Part shown: positions 9,736-35,439 of the stretch, piece by piece | How positions within the stretch are numbered: the first letter of the stretch is position 1 | How the letters are laid out: the number at the start of each line of letters is the position of its first letter | DNA from: a virus | Taxonomy: Duplodnaviria; Caudoviricetes | Length of the DNA stretch: 40,916 nucleotides | Reading direction: 5' to 3' (one strand) | Virus record (IMG/VR): IMGVR_UViG_3300020045_009122 | Span: 1 to 40,916 of that record | Translations under genes and position numbers: made by a program | The notes under the pieces: model-generated | Database searches by the model: none | Told to the model about the DNA's origin: nothing | Seen by the model: the letters and a program-made list of their open reading frames with translations, nothing else

Positions 9736-10968
9736 ATGAGCGAATGCGTTGAACTTTGGAACAGAGCCCGGAAGCTCCACGAGGAAAACAAATTCCTCGA
9801 AGCGGCGGACGTATACACCAAGGCCGTACTTTCTCCCGAGAACAATCCTCGCATCAAGGGCAACTGCATGAACAATCTCGGGATCATCATTCAGTCAATG
9901 GGCCATCTGGAGAAAGCCGCCGGGTGCTTCGCCTTCGCAATCTCGATGCGTCCGAAGAGCGCTGAGATTCTGAACAATATCGGCAACGTGCGGCTCTACT
10001 GCGGCGATTACCTGGGGGCGCAGGAGTTTTTTCTCAAGGCGATGGCGATGAACCCCGAGTCCGCCGAGGCGCGGCAAAACTCGGCCGTGGTCTCGCTGAT
10101 CATGGGTGAATTCCGCCGCGGCTGGATTGGGTACGAGTCAAGATGGAAATGCCCGACGTTCACGACGAAGGAATTCCCGACAAAGAAACCACGATGGAAA
10201 GGACAAAATCTCGAAGGCAAAACCATCATGCTCACGCACGAGCAAGGCTTTGGCGACTCCATCATGTTCATCCGTTACGCGAAAATGGTGAAGGATCGCG
10301 GCGCCGCGCGAGTACGGTTCCTCGGGCCGCCAGAGCTTCGGCGGCTGTTCGATGGGGTTGATGGGATCGATGAATACCTGATTGCGAATACGGATGAGGA
10401 TTTCGATTTCCACTGTCCGCTACTCTCGCTGCCAAAAGTTTTCAAAACCACGCTTGAGACGGTGCCGAGCTCGGTTCCCTACATCACACGATTTCAGCGA
10501 TGCCCAGTTCCCGAGTCTCCGGAGATGCGTGTCGGCATCGCTTGGGCCGGGCGACCTGAACACGGCAAAGATCGCTGGCGGTCAATCACCGCGAAGCACT
10601 TCACACCATTGATGGATCTGGACAAGATAGCTTGGGTGTCTCTTCAGGTCGGGGCCAAGGCATCAATGGTTTCCGATTTACCGAAGGTGATCGATCTGTC
10701 ATCAACGCTGCGCGACTTCACCGATACGGCTGGAGCAATCGCACACCTTGACCTCATCATCTCCATCGATACGGCGCTCGTGCATCTGGCTGGCGCGATG
10801 GCGAAACCCGTCTGGATGCTGACCCCTTATAATCCAGATTGGCGATGGATGTTGAACCGCACGGACAGTCCCTGGTATCCGACGATGAGATTATTTCGGC
10901 AACCGAAACAGGACGATTGGGATTCGGTTTTTGCGGATGTGCGGAACGCGCTCTTGGATCTGCTATGA
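9736..10968 (+). CDS. TPR-repeat glycosyltransferase (GT9/heptosyltransferase-like GT-B fold)
   Basis: TPRs (NNLG, PKSAEILNNIG), HEQGFGDSIMF, VGIAWAG, ISIDTALVHLAGAM, DWRW, SPWYPTMRLFRQ. Confidence 0.9.
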   Translation: MSECVELWNRARKLHEENKFLEAADVYTKAVLSPENNPRIKGNCMNNLGIIIQSMGHLEKAAGCFAFAISMRPKSAEILNNIGNVRLYCGDYLGAQEFFLKAMAMNPESAEARQNSAVVSLIMGEFRRGWIGYESRWKCPTFTTKEFPTKKPRWKGQNLEGKTIMLTHEQGFGDSIMFIRYAKMVKDRGAARVRFLGPPELRRLFDGVDGIDEYLIANTDEDFDFHCPLLSLPKVFKTTLETVPSSVPYITRFQRCPVPESPEMRVGIAWAGRPEHGKDRWRSITAKHFTPLMDLDKIAWVSLQVGAKASMVSDLPKVIDLSSTLRDFTDTAGAIAHLDLIISIDTALVHLAGAMAKPVWMLTPYNPDWRWMLNRTDSPWYPTMRLFRQPKQDDWDSVFADVRNALLDLL

Positions 10969-11558
10969 CCGCTCTCGAATATTTCCTTGCTGAACTCTGC
11001 CTGGACTCCTACCCCGAGCCAATCACTGCCGGTCATTCTGCGATTACCGAAAGAGTATTTGAGGGCATCCGGCATCTTATCCCGTCGGGAGCTAAAGTGC
11101 TGGACGTTGGATGCGGCTCAGGACCCGCTCTCGCTCTGTTTCGCAAGTACGGATTCAATGCGGAGGGGATCACGCCGAACAAAACCGATTTTGCTGCGTG
11201 TCAGTTCCACGGTTTCCGTGTCCACAATATGATGCAGGAGCAGTTGACGTTCACCGACGAATGCTTCGATCTTGTTTGGGCTCGTCACGTCCTTGAGCAT
11301 TCTCCGATTCCATACTGGGTGCTACACGAGTTCCATCGCGTGTGCGGGCCGGGCGGATTGCTCTACGTAGAGGTTCCGGCGCCAGATACAGCCTGCCATC
11401 ACGAAACGAACGAGAATCATTACAGTTGCCTCACGTTTTCCACATGGGTTCAACTGATCCAACGAAGTGGTTTTGAGATTTTTGAGAGCTTAAAAATTCC
11501 ACTCTCAACGCCGGTTGGACCGGATGAATACTGGAGTTACCTCTGCCGAAAAAAATGA
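10965..11558 (+). CDS. Class I SAM-dependent methyltransferase
   Basis: VLDVGCGSG motif I, FDLVWARHVLEH, GGLLYVEVP. Confidence 0.9.
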   Translation: MTALEYFLAELCLDSYPEPITAGHSAITERVFEGIRHLIPSGAKVLDVGCGSGPALALFRKYGFNAEGITPNKTDFAACQFHGFRVHNMMQEQLTFTDECFDLVWARHVLEHSPIPYWVLHEFHRVCGPGGLLYVEVPAPDTACHHETNENHYSCLTFSTWVQLIQRSGFEIFESLKIPLSTPVGPDEYWSYLCRKK

Positions 11559-12598
11559 AATCTTCCCTTTTCTATGCTGGCCAACCAGGCAACGGCTTCG
11601 GTTGGGGAACATGCAACAAATACCTAAGACTGGAGCTTGGGAAGCTGTTTGAATTGCGCGAACTACCATCTCGCCCATGCGGAGTGGGCTCGCCGCTCTT
11701 CATGCCCATAGCTGACCACGACCTCGAACCAATCACACAACACAGCGGCAAGCCGACCATCGGTTACACGTTCTTTGAATATCCTCTAGGCGCGCGCTCG
11801 CGTAAGAATGCGGCGCGCTACGATTGGATCTTCGCGGGTTCGTCCTGGTGTGTGGATCGGCTGAATGCGCACGGGATCGAGCATTGTTCGGTGCTGGTTC
11901 AGGGGGTGGACCATGAGATATTCCATCCGGCAACCGAAGCGCGAATTAGTGACGGAAAATTCCGCATCTTCTCCGGCGGAAAATTCGAGTGGCGCAAGGG
12001 GCAGGATCTCGTCATCGCCGCATTCCGCAAACTCTCCAAGCAGTTCCCCGAGATGACCCTCGTCGCTGCCTGGCACAATCCCTGGCCAGACCTAATGAAG
12101 ACCATGTGCCAAAGCCCACACATCGAATGGGACGCGCGCGGCGACACGCAGGAAGAGTTCTTGATTGACCTCTGCAAGAACAACGGCATCCCGGAGGGCC
12201 GGGTCGAGATCCTGCCGCTCTGTTCCCAGAAGCAACTGGCCGACGTTATGAGGTCCTGTGACCTGGGGGTTTTCCCCAATCGCTGCGAGGGCGGAACAAA
12301 CCTCGTGCTGATGGAATTTATGGCGTGCGGGAAACCGGCTATGGTAAGTTACGTGACAGGGCACATGGACGTTGCTACTGCTTTTAACTCTGCCTGGCTG
12401 ACAGGTGAAAAAACTAATGCTGGATGGTGCGAGGTGAGGGTCAATCAAATCGTAGAGCAGGTGACGGCGTTGCGAGACATGCCGCTTTGCAGAGAAGGAA
12501 TCTCGCAGCAGGCAGCAATGGACATGAAGCAGTGGACGTGGGCACGAGCAGCAAAAACTATTGCGGGTAAAATTGACGAGTTATGCCGAGCGCATTAG
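11555..12598 (+). CDS. Glycosyltransferase family 4
   Basis: GVDHEIFHP, GKFEWRKGQD, FPNRCEGGTNLVLMEFMACGKP (EX7E-like), WTWARAA. Confidence 0.9.
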   Translation: MKSSLFYAGQPGNGFGWGTCNKYLRLELGKLFELRELPSRPCGVGSPLFMPIADHDLEPITQHSGKPTIGYTFFEYPLGARSRKNAARYDWIFAGSSWCVDRLNAHGIEHCSVLVQGVDHEIFHPATEARISDGKFRIFSGGKFEWRKGQDLVIAAFRKLSKQFPEMTLVAAWHNPWPDLMKTMCQSPHIEWDARGDTQEEFLIDLCKNNGIPEGRVEILPLCSQKQLADVMRSCDLGVFPNRCEGGTNLVLMEFMACGKPAMVSYVTGHMDVATAFNSAWLTGEKTNAGWCEVRVNQIVEQVTALRDMPLCREGISQQAAMDMKQWTWARAAKTIAGKIDELCRAH

Positions 12599-23807: not shown

Positions 23808-24547
23808 GACTCATAATTCTGCTTCTCTCGGCTCTCTCGGCTCAGGCGGCTTACGTCAACTGGGATGTTCATAATTACTCGTGGGACGGGAAGTCCAAGG
23901 ACGTAACCTGCATCGAGTATAACCGAACCTACGAACGGTTTACTGCTTCTGCGCCTCCGTATCCTCAACATAGCCAATTCGTGAAATACTCAGCGTCGCC
24001 GCTCTGCCAGTTCAACGGCCTGCTGGTCGAGGATCGGGTTTTGTGGACTAGCGTCGCAATGGCTGACTCGAACGTCTACAGCTACCAGAACGGAGTCTGC
24101 ATCCAAACCAACGCGCACACCGGACCGTTGCCTGAGTACCAGCCAAAGCGCATCCGCGAGATGGCTTATTACACGGACCTAAACATGGATGGCAGCTCCG
24201 GCGGGAAGTTCTCGCGCTACACGTTCGGTAGGCAACGCTTCTGGATCAACGCGGTAACTAACGGGAATTACTACGTCAAAGTCACTTTCACAGGAGGCTA
24301 CTGGGACGACTGGTTTCCGGGCCACTCCTATCCGGGGGACATCGACGATATAAATACGCCAGCCGTGAAACAGTTCAATTACGTGGCTGACGGCGTGCGG
24401 ATAAACAACATCACTCCAAACTATGCCGGCGTGGTTTACTTCTACTGGAACCCATACGGCGGGGTGACAATTGACCTAACTCCGACGGTAGCCAATGCGA
24501 CTCGCGGAAGGCACTGGAAATACCACCTGATAATGGAAATCCCTTGA
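23804..24547 (+). CDS. Hypothetical secreted-type protein
   Basis: MRLIILLLSALSAQA signal peptide; aromatic-rich. Confidence 0.6.
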   Translation: MRLIILLLSALSAQAAYVNWDVHNYSWDGKSKDVTCIEYNRTYERFTASAPPYPQHSQFVKYSASPLCQFNGLLVEDRVLWTSVAMADSNVYSYQNGVCIQTNAHTGPLPEYQPKRIREMAYYTDLNMDGSSGGKFSRYTFGRQRFWINAVTNGNYYVKVTFTGGYWDDWFPGHSYPGDIDDINTPAVKQFNYVADGVRINNITPNYAGVVYFYWNPYGGVTIDLTPTVANATRGRHWKYHLIMEIP

Positions 24548-27500
24548 GAACTCTTTTACTCCTTCTTCTCTCGGTGCTGTCAGTCTCCGGGCAGCAGAGC
24601 AGGTCGCAGGGAAGGGCTCCAGGTCTGGAACCAATCGTAAGCCAGCTCATCACGGTTGACGTTGGTGAGTCGCAGACAATTCCAGGGCCTTCCGCAATAG
24701 CAGTCCTGGAGGCCATTGTCGGCATCACTGGCGGCAGCACAAACGGAGTTGTGACAAGCTGGACTTACACCGAGGGGCCGCTCTCCGCTGAATTCGCCCA
24801 ACAGAACGGCATCACCAACCTTGGAACCTTTACATCCGTCGGTCGATACACGATCACCGTTGTTGCGCAGAAGGGTGTGCTGTTCAACACGAATTCGATT
24901 TATGTGTTCGTGGTCGATCAGGGGATCACGAACTTCAATCCAGCCGTCAGCATGACACGTCCTGCCAACGGTGCTGAATTCACAGCACCGATCAATCTGA
25001 CTCTGGCTGCTGACGCGCAGGACAAAGACGGTAGCGTAACAAATGTGGTTTTCTACAACGGAGCTACTCCGCTCTGGACGAGCACAGTCGCGCCTTACAC
25101 ATTCACGCTGACGAACGCAGCGGCGACCAATTACGTCTTTGCGGCCGCTGCGACGGATAACCGGGGCGCAACAAATCTCTCAGCTTCAGTCTCGGCAATC
25201 GTGCGCGAATCGACCACGCCCATTCTCGTTCCGCCATTGGTCAGCATCACGACACCGACCAATGACGCATCATTCACCGCTCCGGTGACGTTCGACCTCA
25301 CGGCCGCAGCCAGCGATTCAGACGGCACCATCACGAGCGTCGCGTTCACCGACAACGATGTCACACTTAGCGTCGATACAACTTTCCCTTACTCGGTCAG
25401 TCTCTCGCCTACGGTCGGGATTCACACCATCCGCGCTACCGCTCTGGACGATGACGGATTGACTTCCGTCGCAACCGCGTTCTTTACCGTGCTCAATCCG
25501 CCAAACATCCTGCCAGTCGCAACGCTCACGGTGCCTACAAACGGCGCGGTGTACACGGCTGCCGCTGACATTCCACTCGAAGCAATAGCAACAGACGAGG
25601 ACGGGACAATCTCGTTCGTGCGTTGGTTCGTGAACGGAGCACAGATCGCAACTGACAGCACCGCTCCATACACGAATGTTGTCTTGTCTCTTGGAGTTGG
25701 TTCCTACGTGTTTGTCGCTCAGGCAATAGACAACCGTTCAGCAGTTGGAACGAGCACGACTAATACGATCACGGTCAACCCGCCAGCAGGCACACCTCCG
25801 GTGGTATCGCTTACGTCTCCGACCAACGGGCAGGCGTTCGTCGCCGGGGCCACTGTGACCCTGACCGCGACGGCGACCGATGCGGGGACGATCACCAACG
25901 TCGCGTTCTGGTCGTCTGTCACAGATCCGCCAACTCCCGGCGAAGAAACTATTGTCAATGATGATGCCGAGGGGCTCGCCTACACCGGCTCATGGACCGA
26001 TAACAACGGTGCTCTCAACCGCAACAACGGTGACGAGCACTACACGCAAACCACCGGCGCGAGTGTGTCGCTCACGTTCACGGGCACTCAGGTGTCGTGG
26101 TTCGGAACTAAGTTCAGCAATCGCGGCAATGCAGATGTCTTTATCGATGATGTGCTCCAAACCACCGTGGACGAATACAATTCCACGGTTCTCTATCAGC
26201 AGGAGCTGTTCACTATCGGCGGGCTGACAAACGGATCACACACGATCAAAGTCGTTTGCAAGGGAACGAAGAACGGCTCATCGACCGGATACTACGTGGA
26301 TCTGGATTTCTTTCAGTATTCAACCGAGGTTGCTGCCGGGCCGGTGGAAACCCTGGTGGCCAGCGATACCACTTCGCCATATACCCAATCCTGGATACCG
26401 GCGGCCAACTCCTATTTGATTGTGGCGCGCGCTTACAACAACGTCGGGCTGGTTTCTACCAGCACACCGCCGGTGTTGATCACGGTCAATCCGCCGATCC
26501 CTCCCATCGTGACGTTGACTCTGCCGACCAACGGAGCGGCATTCGTTCAAGGAGATAACATCGCGCTTGCGGCGATTGCCAGCGATCAGGACGGCACGGT
26601 TACGAATGTTGTTTTTATGCAATTCCAGCCGGACGCGTTCATTACCTCGGATCCAAGTTCCCCCTACTCTGGAACGTGGACGAATGCTCCGGCTGGTTCT
26701 TACGCGCTCGTTGCCAAAGCGTTCGATTCGAGCGGGCTCACCACTATCTCGCCTGCGATCAACATCACGATTGCACCAACGCCTCCGCAGAGTGTGTTCG
26801 TAGACGCGGGGCCATTCCGCACCGCAACGATGAGTGCGTACAAAAATTATTTCGACTCCGAGTATACCGACAACGCAGCGACGTTTAACGCCATTGTCAA
26901 CGCGGGCACGGGGCCGAACATGTATAACGCGCAGTTCTTCATCGACGGCACCATCAGCATGTACGAAGGAACCAAGGACACCAATTACATCAACCGCGCC
27001 CTGGTCTGGTCCGAGACATGCGTGCTACGGGCAAACATCACTGACAGCAACGGTAAGAAGAATTGGGGAGGCGTCTGGGCTTCGCCGTATACAGCGACTC
27101 CGATTGCTTACCAGCTTGAAGAAATCCAGGGCGCCAGCGCCATGAGCAGGGTAGCGAGAATCGTAATGACTGACCCGGACCTCCGCGCGGTCTATGGCAC
27201 CAGAGCAACCGCCGTCTATAACTTCTGCCGTGACCATATCCTCGCTAAGCACCTCGTCACGCGGGCCGGGTATTCCGCTTACGCCAACTGGAGCCAAGTG
27301 ACGACGAGCAACACCTCGGACAAACCGAGCATCCTCCTGCGCCTTGTCCTGGACTGCAAAGCCATCAGCGCCGTGCTTGGAAGCTCCGATGCGTCTACCT
27401 ACGGCTGGGCTACCAAGGCGACCGAACTCGCCGAGGGTATCAAGGATTACAACGGCAAGGAAGCGCGATTCCTTCCGTGGCAAGGCGGACTGATCTGGGG

Positions 27501-28158
27501 GCACGGCAAGGTGTGGCAGTCCTGGACAGATATTGACACGTCGCACGCGAACCGGCTGCCGTTCGTGGTGATCCAAGGCTTCGAGATGGGCCAGACGTTC
27601 ACTATGACGCACGTCACGGGGTTGGCCAATCTGCTCACGCTCACGCTCTGGGATCTTTCGACCACATCGCCGCAGTTCAGGAATTTCCTCAGCGGCTATA
27701 ACGGGCCGTTCCTGAACCGGCCAGCGTGGAACAACGGAAAGATCGCGGATGGCTGGAGCTTGCTCGCCGGGTATGATGCGAGCGCCGCGAGCGCTGTCAA
27801 AGCAACGGTGCGGGCAATTTACAACGGTGTGAGCAATCCGAGTCTGTCGTACAACGACTCGCATCTTGCGCGACACGCGCTCATTGGCCATCTGGTTCGT
27901 TCTGTGTCGCTGCGCGAGTCGCCGCCTTACGCTACGCTTACCGGCATCGCCACGGGCAGTGGCATAACGGGTATGCTTTGGACACACGTAAGCGGGCCAA
28001 GCGGTTGGACTATCGCCAAGCCGACGAGCGCCGCGACAACGATTCTGTTCACCAGCGCTGCTGTCGGTGCGCACACATTTCGGCTTACCGTGTCGTCTGG
28101 CAGTCCTGATGTGTCCGACGACGTTGGAGTTACTGTTGTTGCCGCTCCCGCGATGTAG
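24544..28158 (+). CDS. Multi-Ig-domain adhesin-like protein with CBM-like jelly roll and helical domain, signal peptide
   Basis: About five P.V..T.PxN(G/D)A.F..A.A.D.DG....V.F bacterial Ig repeats; YTGSW..SLTFTGT..GSHTIKV jelly roll inserted in one repeat; PKD-like halves flank an aromatic helical domain; TTG start. Confidence 0.8.
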   Translation: MRTLLLLLLSVLSVSGQQSRSQGRAPGLEPIVSQLITVDVGESQTIPGPSAIAVLEAIVGITGGSTNGVVTSWTYTEGPLSAEFAQQNGITNLGTFTSVGRYTITVVAQKGVLFNTNSIYVFVVDQGITNFNPAVSMTRPANGAEFTAPINLTLAADAQDKDGSVTNVVFYNGATPLWTSTVAPYTFTLTNAAATNYVFAAAATDNRGATNLSASVSAIVRESTTPILVPPLVSITTPTNDASFTAPVTFDLTAAASDSDGTITSVAFTDNDVTLSVDTTFPYSVSLSPTVGIHTIRATALDDDGLTSVATAFFTVLNPPNILPVATLTVPTNGAVYTAAADIPLEAIATDEDGTISFVRWFVNGAQIATDSTAPYTNVVLSLGVGSYVFVAQAIDNRSAVGTSTTNTITVNPPAGTPPVVSLTSPTNGQAFVAGATVTLTATATDAGTITNVAFWSSVTDPPTPGEETIVNDDAEGLAYTGSWTDNNGALNRNNGDEHYTQTTGASVSLTFTGTQVSWFGTKFSNRGNADVFIDDVLQTTVDEYNSTVLYQQELFTIGGLTNGSHTIKVVCKGTKNGSSTGYYVDLDFFQYSTEVAAGPVETLVASDTTSPYTQSWIPAANSYLIVARAYNNVGLVSTSTPPVLITVNPPIPPIVTLTLPTNGAAFVQGDNIALAAIASDQDGTVTNVVFMQFQPDAFITSDPSSPYSGTWTNAPAGSYALVAKAFDSSGLTTISPAINITIAPTPPQSVFVDAGPFRTATMSAYKNYFDSEYTDNAATFNAIVNAGTGPNMYNAQFFIDGTISMYEGTKDTNYINRALVWSETCVLRANITDSNGKKNWGGVWASPYTATPIAYQLEEIQGASAMSRVARIVMTDPDLRAVYGTRATAVYNFCRDHILAKHLVTRAGYSAYANWSQVTTSNTSDKPSILLRLVLDCKAISAVLGSSDASTYGWATKATELAEGIKDYNGKEARFLPWQGGLIWGHGKVWQSWTDIDTSHANRLPFVVIQGFEMGQTFTMTHVTGLANLLTLTLWDLSTTSPQFRNFLSGYNGPFLNRPAWNNGKIADGWSLLAGYDASAASAVKATVRAIYNGVSNPSLSYNDSHLARHALIGHLVRSVSLRESPPYATLTGIATGSGITGMLWTHVSGPSGWTIAKPTSAATTILFTSAAVGAHTFRLTVSSGSPDVSDDVGVTVVAAPAM

Positions 28159-29850: not shown

Positions 29851-30591
29851 ATGAGCGACTCAAAAGAACTTGCAGCCGTCGGGCAGCAACTCCCGGCAAA
29901 ACAAAGTCCAACCGTAGGCGACATGCTCCACGCGGTCATTGAACGCGGGGTGACAGGCGAGAACGTCGCGGCAGTCGCTGAGCTTGCAAAGCTCTGGAAG
30001 CAAACCCAGGAATGGGACGCGGAAAAACGATTCGTCGAGGCGTTCGTCGCGCTCCAAGCGGACGTTCCGAAAGTCCAAGCGACCAAGGCTGTACCCAACA
30101 ACGATGGAACCGTTCGCTACAAGTTCGCACCGTTCGAGGATCTCATGGAGCAAGTGCAACCCATGCTCCAGCGGCATGGGTTCACCGTATCATTCAGCAG
30201 CCGGGTCGATGCGGGCCGGATCATCTCGACGTGTATCCTGCAACACGTCGGCGGTCATAAGCGCTTAAACGAATTCGCTGTGAGGATCGGCTCCGGGCCT
30301 CCGAAGGCAACTGAGGCGCAGGCGGACGGCGCGGCGGCGACCTACGCGAAACGGTTCGCTCTTACCGAGGCGCTCAACATCGTCGTGGGACATTTAGATG
30401 ATGACGCACGCAACGAGGGCAGCACCATCACCCCGGAGCAAGCAGCAGCGCTGGCAAAGCGCGTTGTGGCTACAGGAAGCAACGCGGAGGCGTTCCTCAA
30501 ATACGCCGGTGCGGCGGACTACGAGTCAATCGCGGCGGTGAAGTATCCATTGCTCGATGAACTCCTTAAAAAGAAGGAGCGGAAACCATGA
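29851..30591 (+). CDS. ERF-family single-strand annealing protein
   Basis: YKFAPFED, HVGGH, QADGAAATYAKRFAL...DDDA motifs. Confidence 0.88.
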   Translation: MSDSKELAAVGQQLPAKQSPTVGDMLHAVIERGVTGENVAAVAELAKLWKQTQEWDAEKRFVEAFVALQADVPKVQATKAVPNNDGTVRYKFAPFEDLMEQVQPMLQRHGFTVSFSSRVDAGRIISTCILQHVGGHKRLNEFAVRIGSGPPKATEAQADGAAATYAKRFALTEALNIVVGHLDDDARNEGSTITPEQAAALAKRVVATGSNAEAFLKYAGAADYESIAAVKYPLLDELLKKKERKP

Positions 30592-31238
30592 TCATCCACG
30601 ACACCAAACAGGGCTCAGAGGAATGGTTTGGCCTGCGGGCAGGCATCCCGACGGCCAGCGAGTTTGATAACCTAGTGACGCCGCTCGGAAAAATCCGCGA
30701 GGGTGAGATGCCCAAAAGTTTTCTCGCGCGGAAAGTCGCGGAAGCATGGCTCGGTGGACCACTACCTTCCGCTGGATTCTTTGATGCCGAACAGGGTCAG
30801 ATCCTGGAGCAAGAGGCAATCCCGTTCTTGGAATTCGAGTATGGCTGGAAAATCTCGAGGCCGGGCTTCATCACGACGGATGACAAACGGATCGGCTGCT
30901 CACCTGACGGCCTGATCGAATCGGAAGGCTGTGGCGTCGAGGTGAAGTGTCCACGGGCAGATACGCATGTCGGCTACCTGCTCTCGGGTGGAATTCCAAA
31001 GGACTACGTCTGTCAAGTCCAGGGCTCCCTGCTGGTCACCGGATTGCACCAGTGGAAATTCGTTTCCTACCGGCGGCACTTTCCGTCGTTGGTGCTCACA
31101 GTCGGACGCGACGAAAAACTGCAATCGGCACTGACCGATGCGCTGTCGGGATTCCTTGTTTCGCTTCGGGAAGCGATGGAGCGGCTGAAGCAACTCAACG
31201 GCGATGATGCGCCGCTCTCACATGCCGCGCTGGTCTAA
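30588..31238 (+). CDS. YqaJ / lambda exonuclease-like protein
   Basis: QGSEEW..LRAG..TAS, GCSPDG, VEVKCP, YVCQVQG. Confidence 0.92.
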   Translation: MIIHDTKQGSEEWFGLRAGIPTASEFDNLVTPLGKIREGEMPKSFLARKVAEAWLGGPLPSAGFFDAEQGQILEQEAIPFLEFEYGWKISRPGFITTDDKRIGCSPDGLIESEGCGVEVKCPRADTHVGYLLSGGIPKDYVCQVQGSLLVTGLHQWKFVSYRRHFPSLVLTVGRDEKLQSALTDALSGFLVSLREAMERLKQLNGDDAPLSHAALV

Positions 31239-31515
31239 AGAAAATCTTTCAGCATTCTATGAACGGCAAAATCGTGCTGGTAGTAAAGGACCTCGGCCAT
31301 GTGCCGAGCTTCAAAAACTCGAAGATGCTGACACGGGGGCGTCTCATCACAAAGCCCGAAAGGCAAAAGTGGATGGCTCGTTGCATCCAAAGTTTTCTTG
31401 CTCAGTTGTCTTGCTCGTCTCAGACAATCGCCGTCGAGATGCGAGCGGCGCGCTCGACACCCTACTTGACTGCTTGGTCGCCGCGATTCGACGATTCAGT
31501 TCAATGGATTCCTGA
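31222..31515 (+). CDS. Overlapping ORF carrying the RusA-like central motif
   Basis: SVVLLVSDNRRRDASGALDTLLDCLV resembles RusA PD.RRRDLDN..K.L.D.L. Confidence 0.5.
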   Translation: MPRWSKENLSAFYERQNRAGSKGPRPCAELQKLEDADTGASHHKARKAKVDGSLHPKFSCSVVLLVSDNRRRDASGALDTLLDCLVAAIRRFSSMDS

Positions 31516-31585
31516 CATCAAAATCACGACGCAGATTGTGGCAAAAGGCAAAGAGGGGGCAATCGTGATCCTGGAAAAATTATGA
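31259..31585 (+). CDS. RusA-like Holliday junction resolvase (N- and C-terminal motifs, central motif absent)
   Basis: GHVPSFKNS, TKPERQKW, DDSVQWI, GAIVILEKL. Confidence 0.6.
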   Translation: MNGKIVLVVKDLGHVPSFKNSKMLTRGRLITKPERQKWMARCIQSFLAQLSCSSQTIAVEMRAARSTPYLTAWSPRFDDSVQWIPDIKITTQIVAKGKEGAIVILEKL

Positions 31586-31872
31586 GATCGCATTCTTACC
31601 GGCCAATCTCACCGCCGGACGGGCCGAAGGACGCGCCGCAAGAACCGTCTGACCCAGAGCAATTCCTCGGACTGAGAATAGTTGATTTTTCACAATTCGA
31701 TGGTGTCTCGGGGCTGATGGCTCATCTGTTGGAGCCCAATTGCCCAGTGCCGTTCTGGCTGAGGGTAGGGAAAGCGACGTTCGGAATCACGCAACACAAT
31801 CGAGATGCTGTTGCGCGAGGGTTGTTGATCGCGATGGAGATCGCCGCGCTTGACAAGGAGCGCGGCGAGTGA
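31582..31872 (+). CDS. Hypothetical protein
   Basis: ATGA-coupled 96 aa ORF. Confidence 0.5.
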   Translation: MRSHSYRPISPPDGPKDAPQEPSDPEQFLGLRIVDFSQFDGVSGLMAHLLEPNCPVPFWLRVGKATFGITQHNRDAVARGLLIAMEIAALDKERGE

Positions 31873-32018: not shown

Positions 32019-32852
32019 ATGCCAGAAAAAATTCCACTCACACCTAACGAGCGAAAGCGTTACGAGATTTGCAAAAAGCAAATCTCGGACGGGTTGCAAA
32101 CTGTTTTCGATACCGGAACCGCCATTATGGAAATCCGAGACTCGAAATTGTACCGCGAGGAATTCGACACCTTCAAAGATTTCTGCAAGCAAACCTATAA
32201 AATCGGCGAGGCCCACGCCTACCGAATGATCGAAGCGGCCGATGTTAAGGATAGTCTGAAAAACTCTCCAATTGGAGAGGAAATTAAAAACGAGGCGCAA
32301 GCACGCGAACTCGCCAATGTGCCGGAAAAGCTTCGAGAAAAGCTCATAAAGCAAATCGTCAAATCAGGCGTCCCCGTGACAGCGGAAGCGATCAAAGAAG
32401 CCAACGCCTGCCTAACAACCGAGAAAAAAGGGAGTCTGAAAATGTCTCCAATTGGAGACAAAATCAAAAATGACAGTCCGATCAAGGACGCGGTAGAACT
32501 GGACCGCGAGCGATGGCCGATACCAGCAAAGTCACTCGAAATCTGGAGTCGCAAACAGGAGATCCAGGAGCTCCTCACGGGGCTCAGCCGGATCAAGTGC
32601 AGAGTCGAAAAAGCCGACGGCGACTTGCTCTTCCACGTTCGGAGTTACCAGCGGTGCCTGGAGACTCTCAATGCCGCGTATTTCCTGCTCACCAACTTTA
32701 TGCCATACGCGGTGTGCCCGGGGTGCAACGGGCAGGTTCCAAAATCCTGTACATGGTGCCTGGGTCGCGGGTTCATATCAGAGCAAGAATGGAATGCGCC
32801 GGACGACAATCTGAAAAAGATTAAGAAAATCCGAGCGGCGCAAATAAAATGA
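32019..32852 (+). CDS. Putative DNA-binding/replication-associated protein with C-terminal Zn finger
   Basis: G.AIMEIRDSKLYRE.F.TF..FC...AYRMIEAA helical domain; CPGCNG..CTWCLGRG DnaJ-type CxxCxG motifs. Confidence 0.65.
   Translation: MPEKIPLTPNERKRYEICKKQISDGLQTVFDTGTAIMEIRDSKLYREEFDTFKDFCKQTYKIGEAHAYRMIEAADVKDSLKNSPIGEEIKNEAQARELANVPEKLREKLIKQIVKSGVPVTAEAIKEANACLTTEKKGSLKMSPIGDKIKNDSPIKDAVELDRERWPIPAKSLEIWSRKQEIQELLTGLSRIKCRVEKADGDLLFHVRSYQRCLETLNAAYFLLTNFMPYAVCPGCNGQVPKSCTWCLGRGFISEQEWNAPDDNLKKIKKIRAAQIK
32264..32460. repeat. Two palindromes with TCTCCAATTGGAGA core, 180 bp apart
   Basis: CTCTCCAATTGGAGAG at 32264-32279 and TGTCTCCAATTGGAGACA at 32443-32460, each preceded by AGTCTGAAAA. 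Confidence 0.8.
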
Positions 32853-34594
32853 GCGCGTTCAAACTCCGAGATTATCAGAGGGAAGCCTCGGACGGCGTGT
32901 TGTCTGACTTCAAAGAAAACAGCTCGACGCTCGGGGTGCTCTACACTGGCGGGGGCAAGACGATAATTTTCGCCGATGTCATCCGGCGCATGAGGCCGCA
33001 GCGTGCAATGGTGCTCGCACACCGCGAGGAGTTGATCTGGCAGGCGCGCGACAAGATCGAGGCAACGACCGGGCTCAACTGCGAAATCGAGATGGCCGAC
33101 CTTCGCGCGAACAACACATTGTTCTCGAATGCGGATGTCGTGGTTGGGACTGTCCAGACCCAGATCGCAGGGAAGAACGGCGGGCGCAAGGAGCGGTTCG
33201 ATCCGATGGACTTCGGGCTTCTGATCATCGACGAGGCGCACCATGCGACCAGCGACAGCTACAAGCAGATCATCGAATACTACCGCAAGAATCCAGATCT
33301 GAAAATTCTGGGGGTTACGGCCACACCGGATCGAACCGACGAGGAGGCGCTCGGTCAAATATTTCAATCCGTCGCATTCGACTTCGAAATTTTGGACGGC
33401 ATCCATGATGGCTGGCTAGTGCCGGTCGATCAGCAAATGGTGAGCATCAAGGGACTCGATTTCTCGAATGTGCGGACCACGTGCGGAGATCTGAATGGTG
33501 CTGAACTGGCGGCAATCATGGAGGCCGAAAGCAATCTGCAAGGCGTGGTTGGAAGCGCAATCGAGATCATCGGCGACAAGCGCGCGCTCATGTTCACGTC
33601 ATCCGTGCTGCACGCGGAGAAGTCCTGCGAACTGTTCAACCGTCACAAGGCGGGCATAGCGGAGTGGGTGTGCGGAAACACGGATAAGGACGTCCGCAGA
33701 GACATGCTCAAAAAGTATGCTGACGGTTCGGTGCAGATCGTTGTCAACTGCAATTGTCTGTCCGAGGGATTCGATAATCCGGCAGTCGAAGTCATCATCC
33801 AGGCCAAGCCGACCAAGAGCAGATCTCTCTACGCGCAGCAGATCGGGCGCGCCACACGGCCATTGCCAGGCGTTGTGGATGGACCAGAGACAGCCGAATT
33901 GCGCCGCGCAGCAATCGCTGCTAGCGCCAAGCCGTCATGCCTGATCGTCGATTACGTCGGAGTCTCGGGGAAACACAAACTCGTTTACGCATCCGACATC
34001 CTCGGAGGAAAGGTCAGCGACGCGGCGATTGATCGCGCGAACAAAGTGGCGCAAGACCGTGGTGTCCCCGTGCGCGTATCCGATCTGTTGGACAAGTCAG
34101 AGGCCGACATCCAACGTGAAGCCGAAGAGCGGAGGATGGCTGAGGAACGAAAACGCGCAGAAGAATTGCGGCGCCGGGCCGTCGTCGCGAAAGTGTCCTA
34201 CTCCGCAAAATTCGTCAATCCGTTCGACGTCCTGGAAATTATTCCCGTGCGGCAGCGAGGTTGGGACAACAATCGGATGCTTTCCGAGAAGCAGCGAAAT
34301 CTGTTGCTCAAGCAAGGCATCAACGCAGACGAGATTCCCTACGCGCAAGCCCGGCAATTGATCGGTGAGATTTTTCACCGCTGGGGAAAGCATCAGGCGA
34401 CGTTCAAGCAGGCGAAAGTCCTCAAGAAATACGGCTATGAAACGAAAGTCTCCATGACCGAGGCGACGAAGATCATCGACGCAATCGCGGCCAACGGTTG
34501 GAAGAAACCTAACGCCGTGCTCCAAGCGCCGCCCACACCACCGGCTCAATCGGACGCGCCGCCAATCGAACACTACGACGAGGTTCCATTTTGA
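32849..34594 (+). CDS. Superfamily 2 DEAH helicase
   Basis: LRDYQ, TGGGKT, DEAHH, TATP, LSEGFD, QQIGRATR. Confidence 0.95.
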   Translation: MSAFKLRDYQREASDGVLSDFKENSSTLGVLYTGGGKTIIFADVIRRMRPQRAMVLAHREELIWQARDKIEATTGLNCEIEMADLRANNTLFSNADVVVGTVQTQIAGKNGGRKERFDPMDFGLLIIDEAHHATSDSYKQIIEYYRKNPDLKILGVTATPDRTDEEALGQIFQSVAFDFEILDGIHDGWLVPVDQQMVSIKGLDFSNVRTTCGDLNGAELAAIMEAESNLQGVVGSAIEIIGDKRALMFTSSVLHAEKSCELFNRHKAGIAEWVCGNTDKDVRRDMLKKYADGSVQIVVNCNCLSEGFDNPAVEVIIQAKPTKSRSLYAQQIGRATRPLPGVVDGPETAELRRAAIAASAKPSCLIVDYVGVSGKHKLVYASDILGGKVSDAAIDRANKVAQDRGVPVRVSDLLDKSEADIQREAEERRMAEERKRAEELRRRAVVAKVSYSAKFVNPFDVLEIIPVRQRGWDNNRMLSEKQRNLLLKQGINADEIPYAQARQLIGEIFHRWGKHQATFKQAKVLKKYGYETKVSMTEATKIIDAIAANGWKKPNAVLQAPPTPPAQSDAPPIEHYDEVPF

Positions 34595-35439
34595 GTGCGA
34601 GTATCCAATGGGTGAGGGTGACGCGGACTAACAAATGTCCGGTGTGCGATCACGGAGATTGGTGCACCTACAGCCAATTAGGATCTTGCTGCATGAGAGT
34701 CCAGAGCGATAAGCCGATGAAGAATGGCGGATGGCTCCACGCGACAGACGGTGAGACATCGCGCGTCCAACCAGTTACCCAAGAGAAGGTCAAAGCAAAG
34801 TTGAACGTCACGGAACTGATGCGCGAATGGAAGAGCAATACGCTGCCTGAGTGGATCGATCAGTTAGCGACGGAACTTGGAGTGTCTAGAGTGTCGCTCG
34901 TCGCGCTAGGGGTTGCGTGGGCAGCGGAACACCGCGCTTGGGCATTCCCGATGTTCGACGGCTACGGCGAGCCTATTGGAATCCGGCTCCGAACTATCGA
35001 AGGCAGAAAGTTGGCCGTGGCAGGCAGCCGCAACGGATTGTTCATTCCCGAAATGCCGGCCGCTCGAACAGCCTGGATCACTGAGGGACCCACAAGCGCC
35101 GCGGCGGCCATCACGCTCGGCTTGTTCCCAGTGTCGCGTCCATCCTGTAGCGGTTCGCTGGGTGACGTCCCAATTGCCTGCCGACGGCTCGGTATCCAGC
35201 GGGCAGTGATCGTCGCGGACAATGATCGCGACAAGTCCATGCCGAACGGATCCACATGGAATCCAGGTGTAGGATCGACTGTGAAACTGGCTGAGATTAT
35301 GAAAATCCCGACGTGCGTTTACGTCCCCCCGGCTAAGGATATCAGAGATTTCTTACGGCTCGGTGGAACCGCTGAAATGATTCATGCGACCGTAAAAAAT
35401 CTCGTGTGGCGCGTGGACCCGAAGGCCGAAAACCTATGA
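34591..35439 (+). CDS. Primase-like protein (Zn finger + TOPRIM)
   Basis: CPVCDH.DWC, ITEGPTSAAA, IVADND, AKDIRDF. Confidence 0.8.
   Translation: MSASIQWVRVTRTNKCPVCDHGDWCTYSQLGSCCMRVQSDKPMKNGGWLHATDGETSRVQPVTQEKVKAKLNVTELMREWKSNTLPEWIDQLATELGVSRVSLVALGVAWAAEHRAWAFPMFDGYGEPIGIRLRTIEGRKLAVAGSRNGLFIPEMPAARTAWITEGPTSAAAAITLGLFPVSRPSCSGSLGDVPIACRRLGIQRAVIVADNDRDKSMPNGSTWNPGVGSTVKLAEIMKIPTCVYVPPAKDIRDFLRLGGTAEMIHATVKNLVWRVDPKAENL

What the first reader, a model, noticed from the sequence alone, without database searches (positions are those of the whole stretch)
31222..31585. RusA resolvase motifs are divided between two overlapping reading frames
Seen: frame A (31259-31585) has RusA-like start (GHVPSFKNS..TKPERQKW) and end (DDSVQWI..GAIVILEKL) but no central catalytic motif. 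Frame B (31222-31515, -1 relative to A) has VVLLVSDNRRRDASGALDTLLDCLV at exactly the position where it is missing from A. Both frames stay open for about 100 codons, and B has its own plausible start (MPRWSKENL). A TTTT at 31393-31396 could allow an A-to-B -1 slip, but a second shift near 31485 would be needed to return. Inference: double recoding, a two-chain enzyme from overprinted genes, or compensating frameshifts that left one protein inactive.
Basis: partly seen in the sequence, partly recalled or inferred. Interest (0 to 1): 0.72.

Follow-up and report, generated by a model that had tools for sequence, protein, structure and literature searches.

The report
RusA resolvase interleaved across two frames
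One 360-base stretch of an uncultured phage holds two overlapping reading frames, kept open in dozens of distant relatives, that carry alternating pieces of a RusA-type DNA-junction-cutting enzyme and likely make two separate proteins predicted to assemble into one enzyme.

Summary
Observation confirmed, and it is not a sequencing error. Frame A (31259-31585) carries RusA's N-half, DD motif and C-terminal strands. Frame B (31222-31515) carries the missing strand, the D70/D72 motif and helix 2. The layout recurs in 56 non-redundant loci (mean 55% nucleotide identity). Both frames are under selection along the whole overlap: B stops across A's N-half 2 vs 100 expected; A stops across B's core 0 vs 79; B stops across A's DD 2 vs 50. 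At both junctions the same nucleotides are constrained in both frames, which one double-shifting ribosome cannot explain; the proposed TTTT slip is in 3 of 56 loci. Both frames have start codons. RusA is the top structural match for A and the top PDB match for B's core; A+B co-folding gives weak support (0.55 vs 0.00). Best reading: a two-chain, probably A2B2, RusA-like resolvase (0.72). Simpler two-frame splits suggest a two-indel origin. K76 and N73 are lost, and expression and activity are untested. This scan noted the same kind of layout earlier in at least eight other windows; six literature searches aimed at it found no description.

The parts
31259..31585 (+). ORF A (108 aa): RusA strand 1, PSFKN turn and loop, helix 1, a variable linker read over B's core, DD motif, two C-terminal strands
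   Evidence: 47 homologues; 469 clusters at 50% identity; model's top structural match is RusA
31222..31515 (+). ORF B (97 aa, -1 frame relative to A): N-terminal helix, linker, then RusA central strand, Arg-rich loop, D70/D72 motif and an extended helix 2. Starts inside the last codons of the YqaJ gene; ATGs at 31204/31207 are alternatives
   Evidence: core profile's best PDB hit is RusA residues 57-85; hhalign E 1.4e-5
31304..31324 (+). A motif PSFKNSK; K19 (31313-31315) invariant; Phe before it is TTC in 50 loci and TTT in 1, which avoids a B stop
31393..31425 (+). 5' double-constrained zone: end of A helix 1 (F46..Q49-L50) on the same bases as B's strand (F/Y, V/I, S-D). Contains the unconserved TTTT
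31423..31467 (+). B catalytic motif DNRRRDASGALDTLLD: D70-equivalent GAT 31438-31440; D72-equivalent is Ser (31444-31446) with Asp at the K76-equivalent position (31456-31458)
31481..31512 (+). 3' double-constrained zone: A L/P-x-DD (D78 31490, D79 31493; D90/D91 equivalents) on the same bases as B's helix end; first Asp is GAC in 52 loci and GAT in 1, which avoids a B stop
29851..30591 (+). Context: ERF single-strand annealing protein
30588..31238 (+). Context: YqaJ-like recombination exonuclease, directly upstream
32849..35439 (+). Context: DNA helicase and primase-like genes downstream

Best explanation
Two overlapping reading frames, both kept open by selection, likely make two separate proteins that are predicted to assemble into one RusA-type Holliday junction resolvase. 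Shown: A encodes the outer pieces of the RusA fold and B the middle piece, in alternating order A-B-A, and both frames are constrained over the whole overlap. Inferred: each frame is initiated at its own start codon; B's strand slots into A's sheet and B's helix takes the place of helix 2; two A+B units pair as RusA does (A2B2); D70/D72 from B and D90/D91 from A form the Mg site. That division is plausible because E. coli RusA already brings D70 and D91 together from different subunits (PMC1636454). Inferred role: resolving recombination and replication intermediates for the phage's ERF/YqaJ/helicase module. Inferred origin: a first indel split rusA into N-half (frame A) and C-half (frame B with a new upstream start), as seen in L077, L096 and P0089; a second indel after helix 2 moved the DD and C-terminal strands back to frame A.
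For: Layout: 74 of 80 classified loci; 41 of 44 loci picked by B alone have A open, and 32 of 35 picked by A alone show the full layout, the other 3 being two cut contigs and L035. Stops against synonymous recoding, 56 loci: B over A's N-half 2 vs 99.8, A over B's core 0 vs 78.5, B across DD 2 vs 49.5; third-frame controls 196/143, 83/86, 15/10; 22 distant loci: 0/37, 0/30, 2/18. Same bases constrained in both frames (observed vs expected of 56): B F/Y 55 vs 10.9, A Q49 46 vs 8.7, B V/I 52 vs 14.2, A L50 55 vs 19.5, B Ala 52 vs 28.9, A P76 50 vs 20.0 of 55. Starts: ATG upstream in A 51 of 56, any start codon 56 of 56; ATG upstream of B's core 53 of 56. B runs at least 7 codons past A's first Asp in 55 of 56. 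0 of 194 A proteins carry the motif in frame. A model: RusA ranks first of 48,161 chains, Z 4.9, rmsd 3.1, 80 aligned, next Z 3.3, and first in Foldseek. B core: RusA E 0.013, hhalign E 1.4e-5. Co-fold: weak support, 0.55 vs best control 0.00, runs agree in at least 89% of contacts, partner pLDDT at least 64; the mark was reached by 116 of 157 solved and 2 of 215 mismatched pairs, but at 0.60 or under by only 18 solved and both mismatches; it may reflect memory of the RusA structure. D72 lost goes with an acid at 76 in 16 of 16, and never in the 80 with D72, in 3 lineages. No PF05866 match elsewhere in this record or 10 related records, several incomplete.
Against: No expression, binding or activity data. 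K76 and N73, which matter for E. coli RusA catalysis (PMC1636454), are replaced (S/A/T/D/E and G). Neither start has a conserved strong Shine-Dalgarno site. Structural matches are weak in absolute terms (Z under 5; Foldseek E 1.4), and A's profile does not align to a 12-sequence RusA profile (hhalign probability 0.4%) or to RusA in the PDB by sequence. NNA_AAG at A Q36-K37 is enriched, 22 vs 8.6 of 56. Exceptions: L060 has two B stops upstream (an in-frame ATG follows), L072's B stops just before DD, L022 has a B stop near the anchor, L035 has stops in A. Loci share ancestry, so expected counts overstate independence.
Confidence: 0.72

Rival explanations
1. Two chains are made and assemble, but the complex is no longer a Holliday junction resolvase: it cuts other branched DNA, or only binds it.
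For: K76 and N73 equivalents are lost throughout. A gains an invariant Lys in PSFKN and a linker of about 25 residues.
Against: D70 is invariant, DD conserved, the Arg loop kept; the D72/position-76 acid swap recurs; single-frame RusA-family members also carry DIDG (L079, L081, L082); neighbours with a Pfam match are mostly replication genes and DNA methylases.
Confidence: 0.12
2. One programmed shift makes the active chain: A-to-B (-1, for example at the NNA_AAG at 31366-31369) or B-to-A (+1 near 31485), with the unshifted product as partner or by-product.
For: NNA_AAG at Q36-K37 in 22 of 56 vs 8.6 expected, 5 of them A_AAA_AAG. The simpler split (L077, L096) looks like a classic -1 layout.
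Against: Absent in 34 of 56. A shift there would drop most of helix 1, whose M39, Q49 and L50 are conserved. B is stop-free upstream of it and past DD. No window of conserved local mRNA stability (mean z -0.6 to +0.3). In L077 and L096 B is also open upstream with its own ATG (0 vs 6.0 and 2.4 stops).
Confidence: 0.09
3. A double ribosomal or transcriptional shift (A to B to A) gives one RusA chain.
For: The motif order A-B-A reproduces RusA exactly, with two compensating shifts.
Against: TTTT in 3 of 56; no run of 5 or more at the 3' junction in any locus; both frames are selected on the same bases at both junctions; B is kept open outside the part needed and A inside the part skipped; a chimera would leave only about 8 residues between the helix-1 Trp and the strand, where L079 has about 20.
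Confidence: 0.05
4. Assembly errors, or a decayed gene after two compensating indels.
For: Reads for this contig could not be checked.
Against: The same layout is in 56 non-redundant loci, with in-frame indels that keep both frames (L007, L009, L032, L033) and 469 protein clusters for A.
Confidence: 0.02

Closest known systems
E. coli RusA (PDB 1Q8R, 2H8C, 2H8E; Pfam PF05866; phrog_34)
   Same: Fold elements and their order, Arg-rich loop, D70, usually D72, DD; phage recombination/replication context. Its D70 and D91 come together from different subunits (PMC1636454, parts 1-3 of 5 read).
   Different: One 120-aa chain forming a homodimer, against two overlapping frames here. K76 and N73 absent; extra A linker and B N-terminal extension; neither chain passes PF05866.
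Split nrdA of ribonucleotide reductase (NrdA-a/NrdA-b; PMC3045599, abstract and outline read)
   Same: One enzyme fragmented into two chains that reassemble as an (a/b)2 tetramer; new tails arise at the break.
   Different: Fragmented by insertion of the mobile endonuclease gene mobE into two smaller genes; simple N-half and C-half, not alternating pieces read from the same bases.
Viral overlapping genes whose products interact (11 pairs listed in PMC6195259, passages read; lambda Rz/Rz1, recalled)
   Same: Two frames on one stretch give partners of one complex.
   Different: Those are described as distinct proteins arising by overprinting; here both frames hold parts of one ancestral domain.
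Programmed -1 frameshift genes (phage tail chaperones, IS transposases; recalled; PMC5009743 searched for terms only)
   Same: One function spread over two frames.
   Different: They have a conserved slip site and a short overlap, and the second frame needs no own start or upstream openness; none of that holds here.

Membership tests
RusA (PF05866) | Match to PF05866 above the gathering score (22.8 bits) | tested here: not met
   No hit for A or B, or for any of 48 A and 29 B members. The simpler-split B chains reach only 15.8 and 18.8 bits.
RusA (PF05866) | Whole fold (four-stranded sheet, two helices) in one chain | tested here: not met
   0 of 194 A proteins have the central motif; B lacks DD and the terminal strands; B alone models as two helices.
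RusA (PF05866) | RusA fold when A and B are taken together | tested here: inconclusive
   A model top hit RusA, Z 4.9, rmsd 3.1, 80 aligned; B core hhalign E 1.4e-5; co-fold weak support 0.55 vs 0.00, no interface given.
RusA (PF05866) | Catalytic D70 | tested here: met
   Invariant in 56 of 56 B cores and aligned to RusA D70.
RusA (PF05866) | Catalytic D72 | tested here: inconclusive
   Asp in 52 of 56 loci; this window has Ser, with Asp four residues on.
RusA (PF05866) | D90/D91 | tested here: met
   In chain A: second Asp 56 of 56, first Asp 53 of 56; equivalence inferred from motif position.
RusA (PF05866) | K76 and N73 | tested here: not met
   Position 73 is Gly in 55 of 56; position 76 is S/A/T or D/E in 96 of 96.
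RusA (PF05866) | Arg-rich loop with R69 | tested here: met
   Arg before D70 in 96% of 56 loci.
RusA (PF05866) | Mg-dependent symmetric cleavage of four-way junctions as a dimer | not testable with these tools
   Needs biochemistry.
Programmed -1 frameshift gene | Conserved slippery site at the junction | tested here: not met
   TTTT 3 of 56; strict heptamer in the junction zone 7 of 56; NNA_AAG 22 of 56.
Programmed -1 frameshift gene | Conserved downstream stimulatory structure | tested here: inconclusive
   No 50-nt window with mean folding z below -0.6; pseudoknots and alignment-based folds were not tested.
Programmed -1 frameshift gene | Second frame unconstrained upstream of the shift | tested here: not met
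   2 stops vs 99.8 expected.

The most novel reading that the evidence does not exclude
A widespread phage family builds one active nuclease domain from two proteins read in different frames of the same bases, with secondary-structure elements dealt alternately between frames (A-B-A) and the active site shared between them. Overlapping genes would then arise by partition of one ancestral gene through two indels, not by overprinting a new protein, and the intermediate stage is still extant.
Probability: 0.65. Interest if true: 0.9.

Novelty: new variant of a known kind. Interest (0 to 1): 0.8.

Why it matters
It would show a route to long overlapping genes other than overprinting, and a way for frameshift mutations to be tolerated without recoding: the old frame keeps being read as a partner chain. 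Intact, singly split and interleaved forms all exist, so each step can be tested with proteins of about 100 residues and a standard junction-cleavage assay. Gene callers apparently keep one frame and neither passes Pfam, so hundreds of phage 'hypothetical proteins' would be half an enzyme, and other families may hide the same way.

Tried and rejected
Pfam and PHROG scans of full-length A and B: nothing. Profile of A against PDB sequences and against a 12-sequence RusA alignment: no RusA match. Sequencing runs: none was listed, so neither indels nor expression were checked. GenBank phages: no match for A at E 0.01, only weak unrelated hits for P0013; simpler-split B chains mostly hit annotated RusA genes weakly. 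GTDB genome scan with the B core gave 1 locus, L096; host not determined. TTTT slip rejected. Strong Shine-Dalgarno sites not conserved. Literature: six searches aimed at this layout and one on interacting overlap products showed no description in their listings; PMC5009743 has no 'RusA' in the held text; the single RusA/RuvC mention in PMC10885494 cites a group of references whose only resolvase paper is the 1991 ruvC identification (that paper not read). The library lacks most subscription journals, and supplements were not searched. Rows dropped before the 56-locus set: of 74 interleaved loci, 2 cut contigs (L023, L034) and 16 at 85% identity or more to a kept one (including L022).

Full report
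Observation. The window is a whole 40.9-kb virus record with terminase, portal, major head and tape-measure-like genes. The finding sits in its recombination/replication module, after ERF and YqaJ genes and before a helicase and a primase-like gene. Both frames are as described: A is 31259-31585 (108 aa), B is 31222-31515 (97 aa), and they overlap by 257 nt. Neither hits Pfam or PHROGs as a full-length protein. In this one sequence the double openness is unremarkable, with about one stop or fewer expected per tested stretch, so homologues decide the matter.

Family. A has 47 homologues in the word-index search and 469 clusters at 50% identity; none of the 194 I examined carries the central motif in frame. 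B has 41 protein relatives. I fetched loci in two ways, by A's N-terminal motif (35 loci) and by B's core (44 loci). With the window, 74 of 80 have the window's interleaved layout, 2 have a simpler split, 1 is an intact single-frame RusA, and 3 are unclassified (two cut contigs and L035); some contigs were fetched twice. After dropping 2 cut contigs and near-duplicates, 56 loci remain at a mean 55% nucleotide identity. Insertions in several loci keep both frames.

Selection. I held one frame's protein fixed, redrew synonymous codons from each locus's usage, and counted stops in the other frame. B stops over A's N-half: 2 vs 99.8. A stops over B's core: 0 vs 78.5. B stops across A's DD: 2 vs 49.5. 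The third frame shows no depletion (196/143, 83/86, 15/10), and B's frame past most B ends has 63 vs 43.8. In 22 loci under 62% identical the counts are 0/37, 0/30 and 2/18. Single codons show it: the Phe before K19 is TTC 50 times and TTT once; the first Asp of DD is GAC 52 times and GAT once, against 38% and 42% T-ending usage. With stops excluded, residues of both frames are still over-conserved on the same bases at 31393-31425 and 31481-31486. Some apparent conservation is only a shadow of the other frame: B's R-R-L over DD matches expectation, and B's KVDG mirrors A's K-W-M-E. Shared ancestry inflates these contrasts, but third positions vary freely elsewhere in the alignment.

One chain or two. 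A double shift reads each base once and needs neither B outside its core nor A inside it; both are maintained. The TTTT is in 3 of 56 loci, a strict heptamer in the junction zone in 7, and no 3' junction has a run of five. An NNA_AAG at A Q36-K37 is enriched (22 vs 8.6) but missing in 34 loci, and no conserved local mRNA stability follows it. A has an upstream ATG in 51 of 56 and some start codon in all; B has an ATG before its core in 53 of 56, the rest being two GTG starts and a cut contig. Strong Shine-Dalgarno sites are not conserved. L060 has lost B's N-terminal part through two stops and has an ATG just before the core; L072's B ends just before DD.

Structure. The A model (mean pLDDT 75.7) has a confident N-half and C-terminus and a weak linker at about 51-80; residues 81-100 are confident but form no strand, as if a partner strand were missing (my inference). 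RusA is its first match by both aligners, though weak: Z 4.9, rmsd 3.1, 80 aligned, next Z 3.3, and E 1.4. B's core profile finds RusA residues 57-85 first in the PDB (E 0.013) and aligns to a RusA profile at E 1.4e-5; A's profile does not. B alone models as two helices and an extended linker (pTM 0.31). Co-folding A with B's last 50 residues gave weak support: 0.55 vs best control 0.00, at least 89% contact agreement, partner pLDDT at least 64. The tool's calibration puts passes at 0.60 or under at 18 of 157 solved pairs and both of its 2 mismatches among 215, and halves of a split gene can pass from memory of the solved fold.

Active site. In E. coli RusA, D70, D72, K76 and D90 are listed as critical, D70, D72 and D91 form the cation site, and residue 70 of one subunit contacts D91 of the other (PMC1636454; parts 1-3 of 5 read). 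Here D70 is invariant in B and DD is conserved in A. N73 is Gly, as in some intact members, and K76 is lost. A's invariant K19 is a candidate substitute; that is untested. This window has Ser for D72 and Asp at 76. Among 96 B sequences, all 16 without D72 have an acid at 76 and none of the 80 with D72 does. A tree of A needs 3 changes for this and rejects one origin (p-AU 0.011; few columns, and A shares bases with these sites). Repeated compensation suggests that metal binding is still selected.

Origin. L077/L078, L096 and P0089 show a simpler split: A holds only the N-half, while B has its own Met and the whole C-half with DD; such B chains hit RusA profiles weakly. In L077 and L096, B is stop-free upstream (0 vs 6.0 and 2.4) and A stays open through B's core (0 vs 2.3 and 4.1), which is what a second indel would need to hand the C-terminus back to A. 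The order intact, split, interleaved is inferred; no rooted tree was built.

Comparison and novelty. It works like RusA, but neither chain meets the family's profile or single-chain definition. Known neighbours are split enzymes (PMC3045599, abstract) and overlapping viral genes whose products interact (PMC6195259, passages). I found no description of one domain interleaved across frames in the listings; the library lacks most subscription journals. No cultured phage matched A. This scan has reported RusA split over overlapping frames in at least eight other windows; those are unchecked AI notes that agree with a reading I had stated before looking, and they are not independent evidence.

Verdict. 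A real, widespread, doubly selected gene overlap. Two-chain RusA-like resolvase 0.72; two chains with altered activity 0.12; single shift 0.09; double shift 0.05; artefact 0.02. Interest 0.8; new variant of a known kind, with an apparently undescribed gene architecture.

Noticed in passing
PHROG scan of L077, L096, P0089, P0013: phrog_1532 (80 positions, unknown function) matches the C-half B chains (E 5e-6 to 2e-4) and phrog_1117 (54 positions, unknown) weakly matches A's N-half (E 0.08). They may be a split RusA in catalogued phages; tblastn of GenBank phages did not identify members.
   Followed up: partly
L077:1836-2186, L096:1400-1764: In the simpler split, frame A stays open almost to the end of B (0 stops vs 2.2 expected in the last stretch of each), though it holds no recognisable RusA part there. 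Unexplained.
   Followed up: partly
L035:1316-1660: A stops right at B's motif, B runs KAGAIP without DD, and a RusA-like last strand appears in frame A after two stops: a broken or mis-assembled intermediate.
   Followed up: partly
L060:1884-2211; L072:1888-2223: Natural variants: B shortened to an internal ATG just before the core (L060); B ending at TKIPSD just before A's DD, with a 3-codon insertion (L072).
   Followed up: partly
L009, L046, P0074, P0077-P0088: A clade with long insertions kept in both frames, motif RRTDLSGKLDT, and B often ending in VPF.
   Followed up: partly
L049-L075: A large subgroup has the A/B pair between a DnaB helicase and an Enc34-type ssDNA-binding gene.
   Followed up: partly
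window 31582-31872: The next ORF starts in A's stop (ATGA); a stop-start overlap follows A in 18 of 56 loci. B's ATG lies within the last 17 nt of YqaJ.
   Followed up: partly
window 24544-28158: 1204-aa ORF with a signal-peptide-like start and repeated PPxVSLTxPTNG units that look Ig-like (by eye); one PHROG hit of unknown function.
   Followed up: no
window 10839-12598: A methyltransferase-like and a glycosyltransferase gene lie between the head and tail genes.
   Followed up: no
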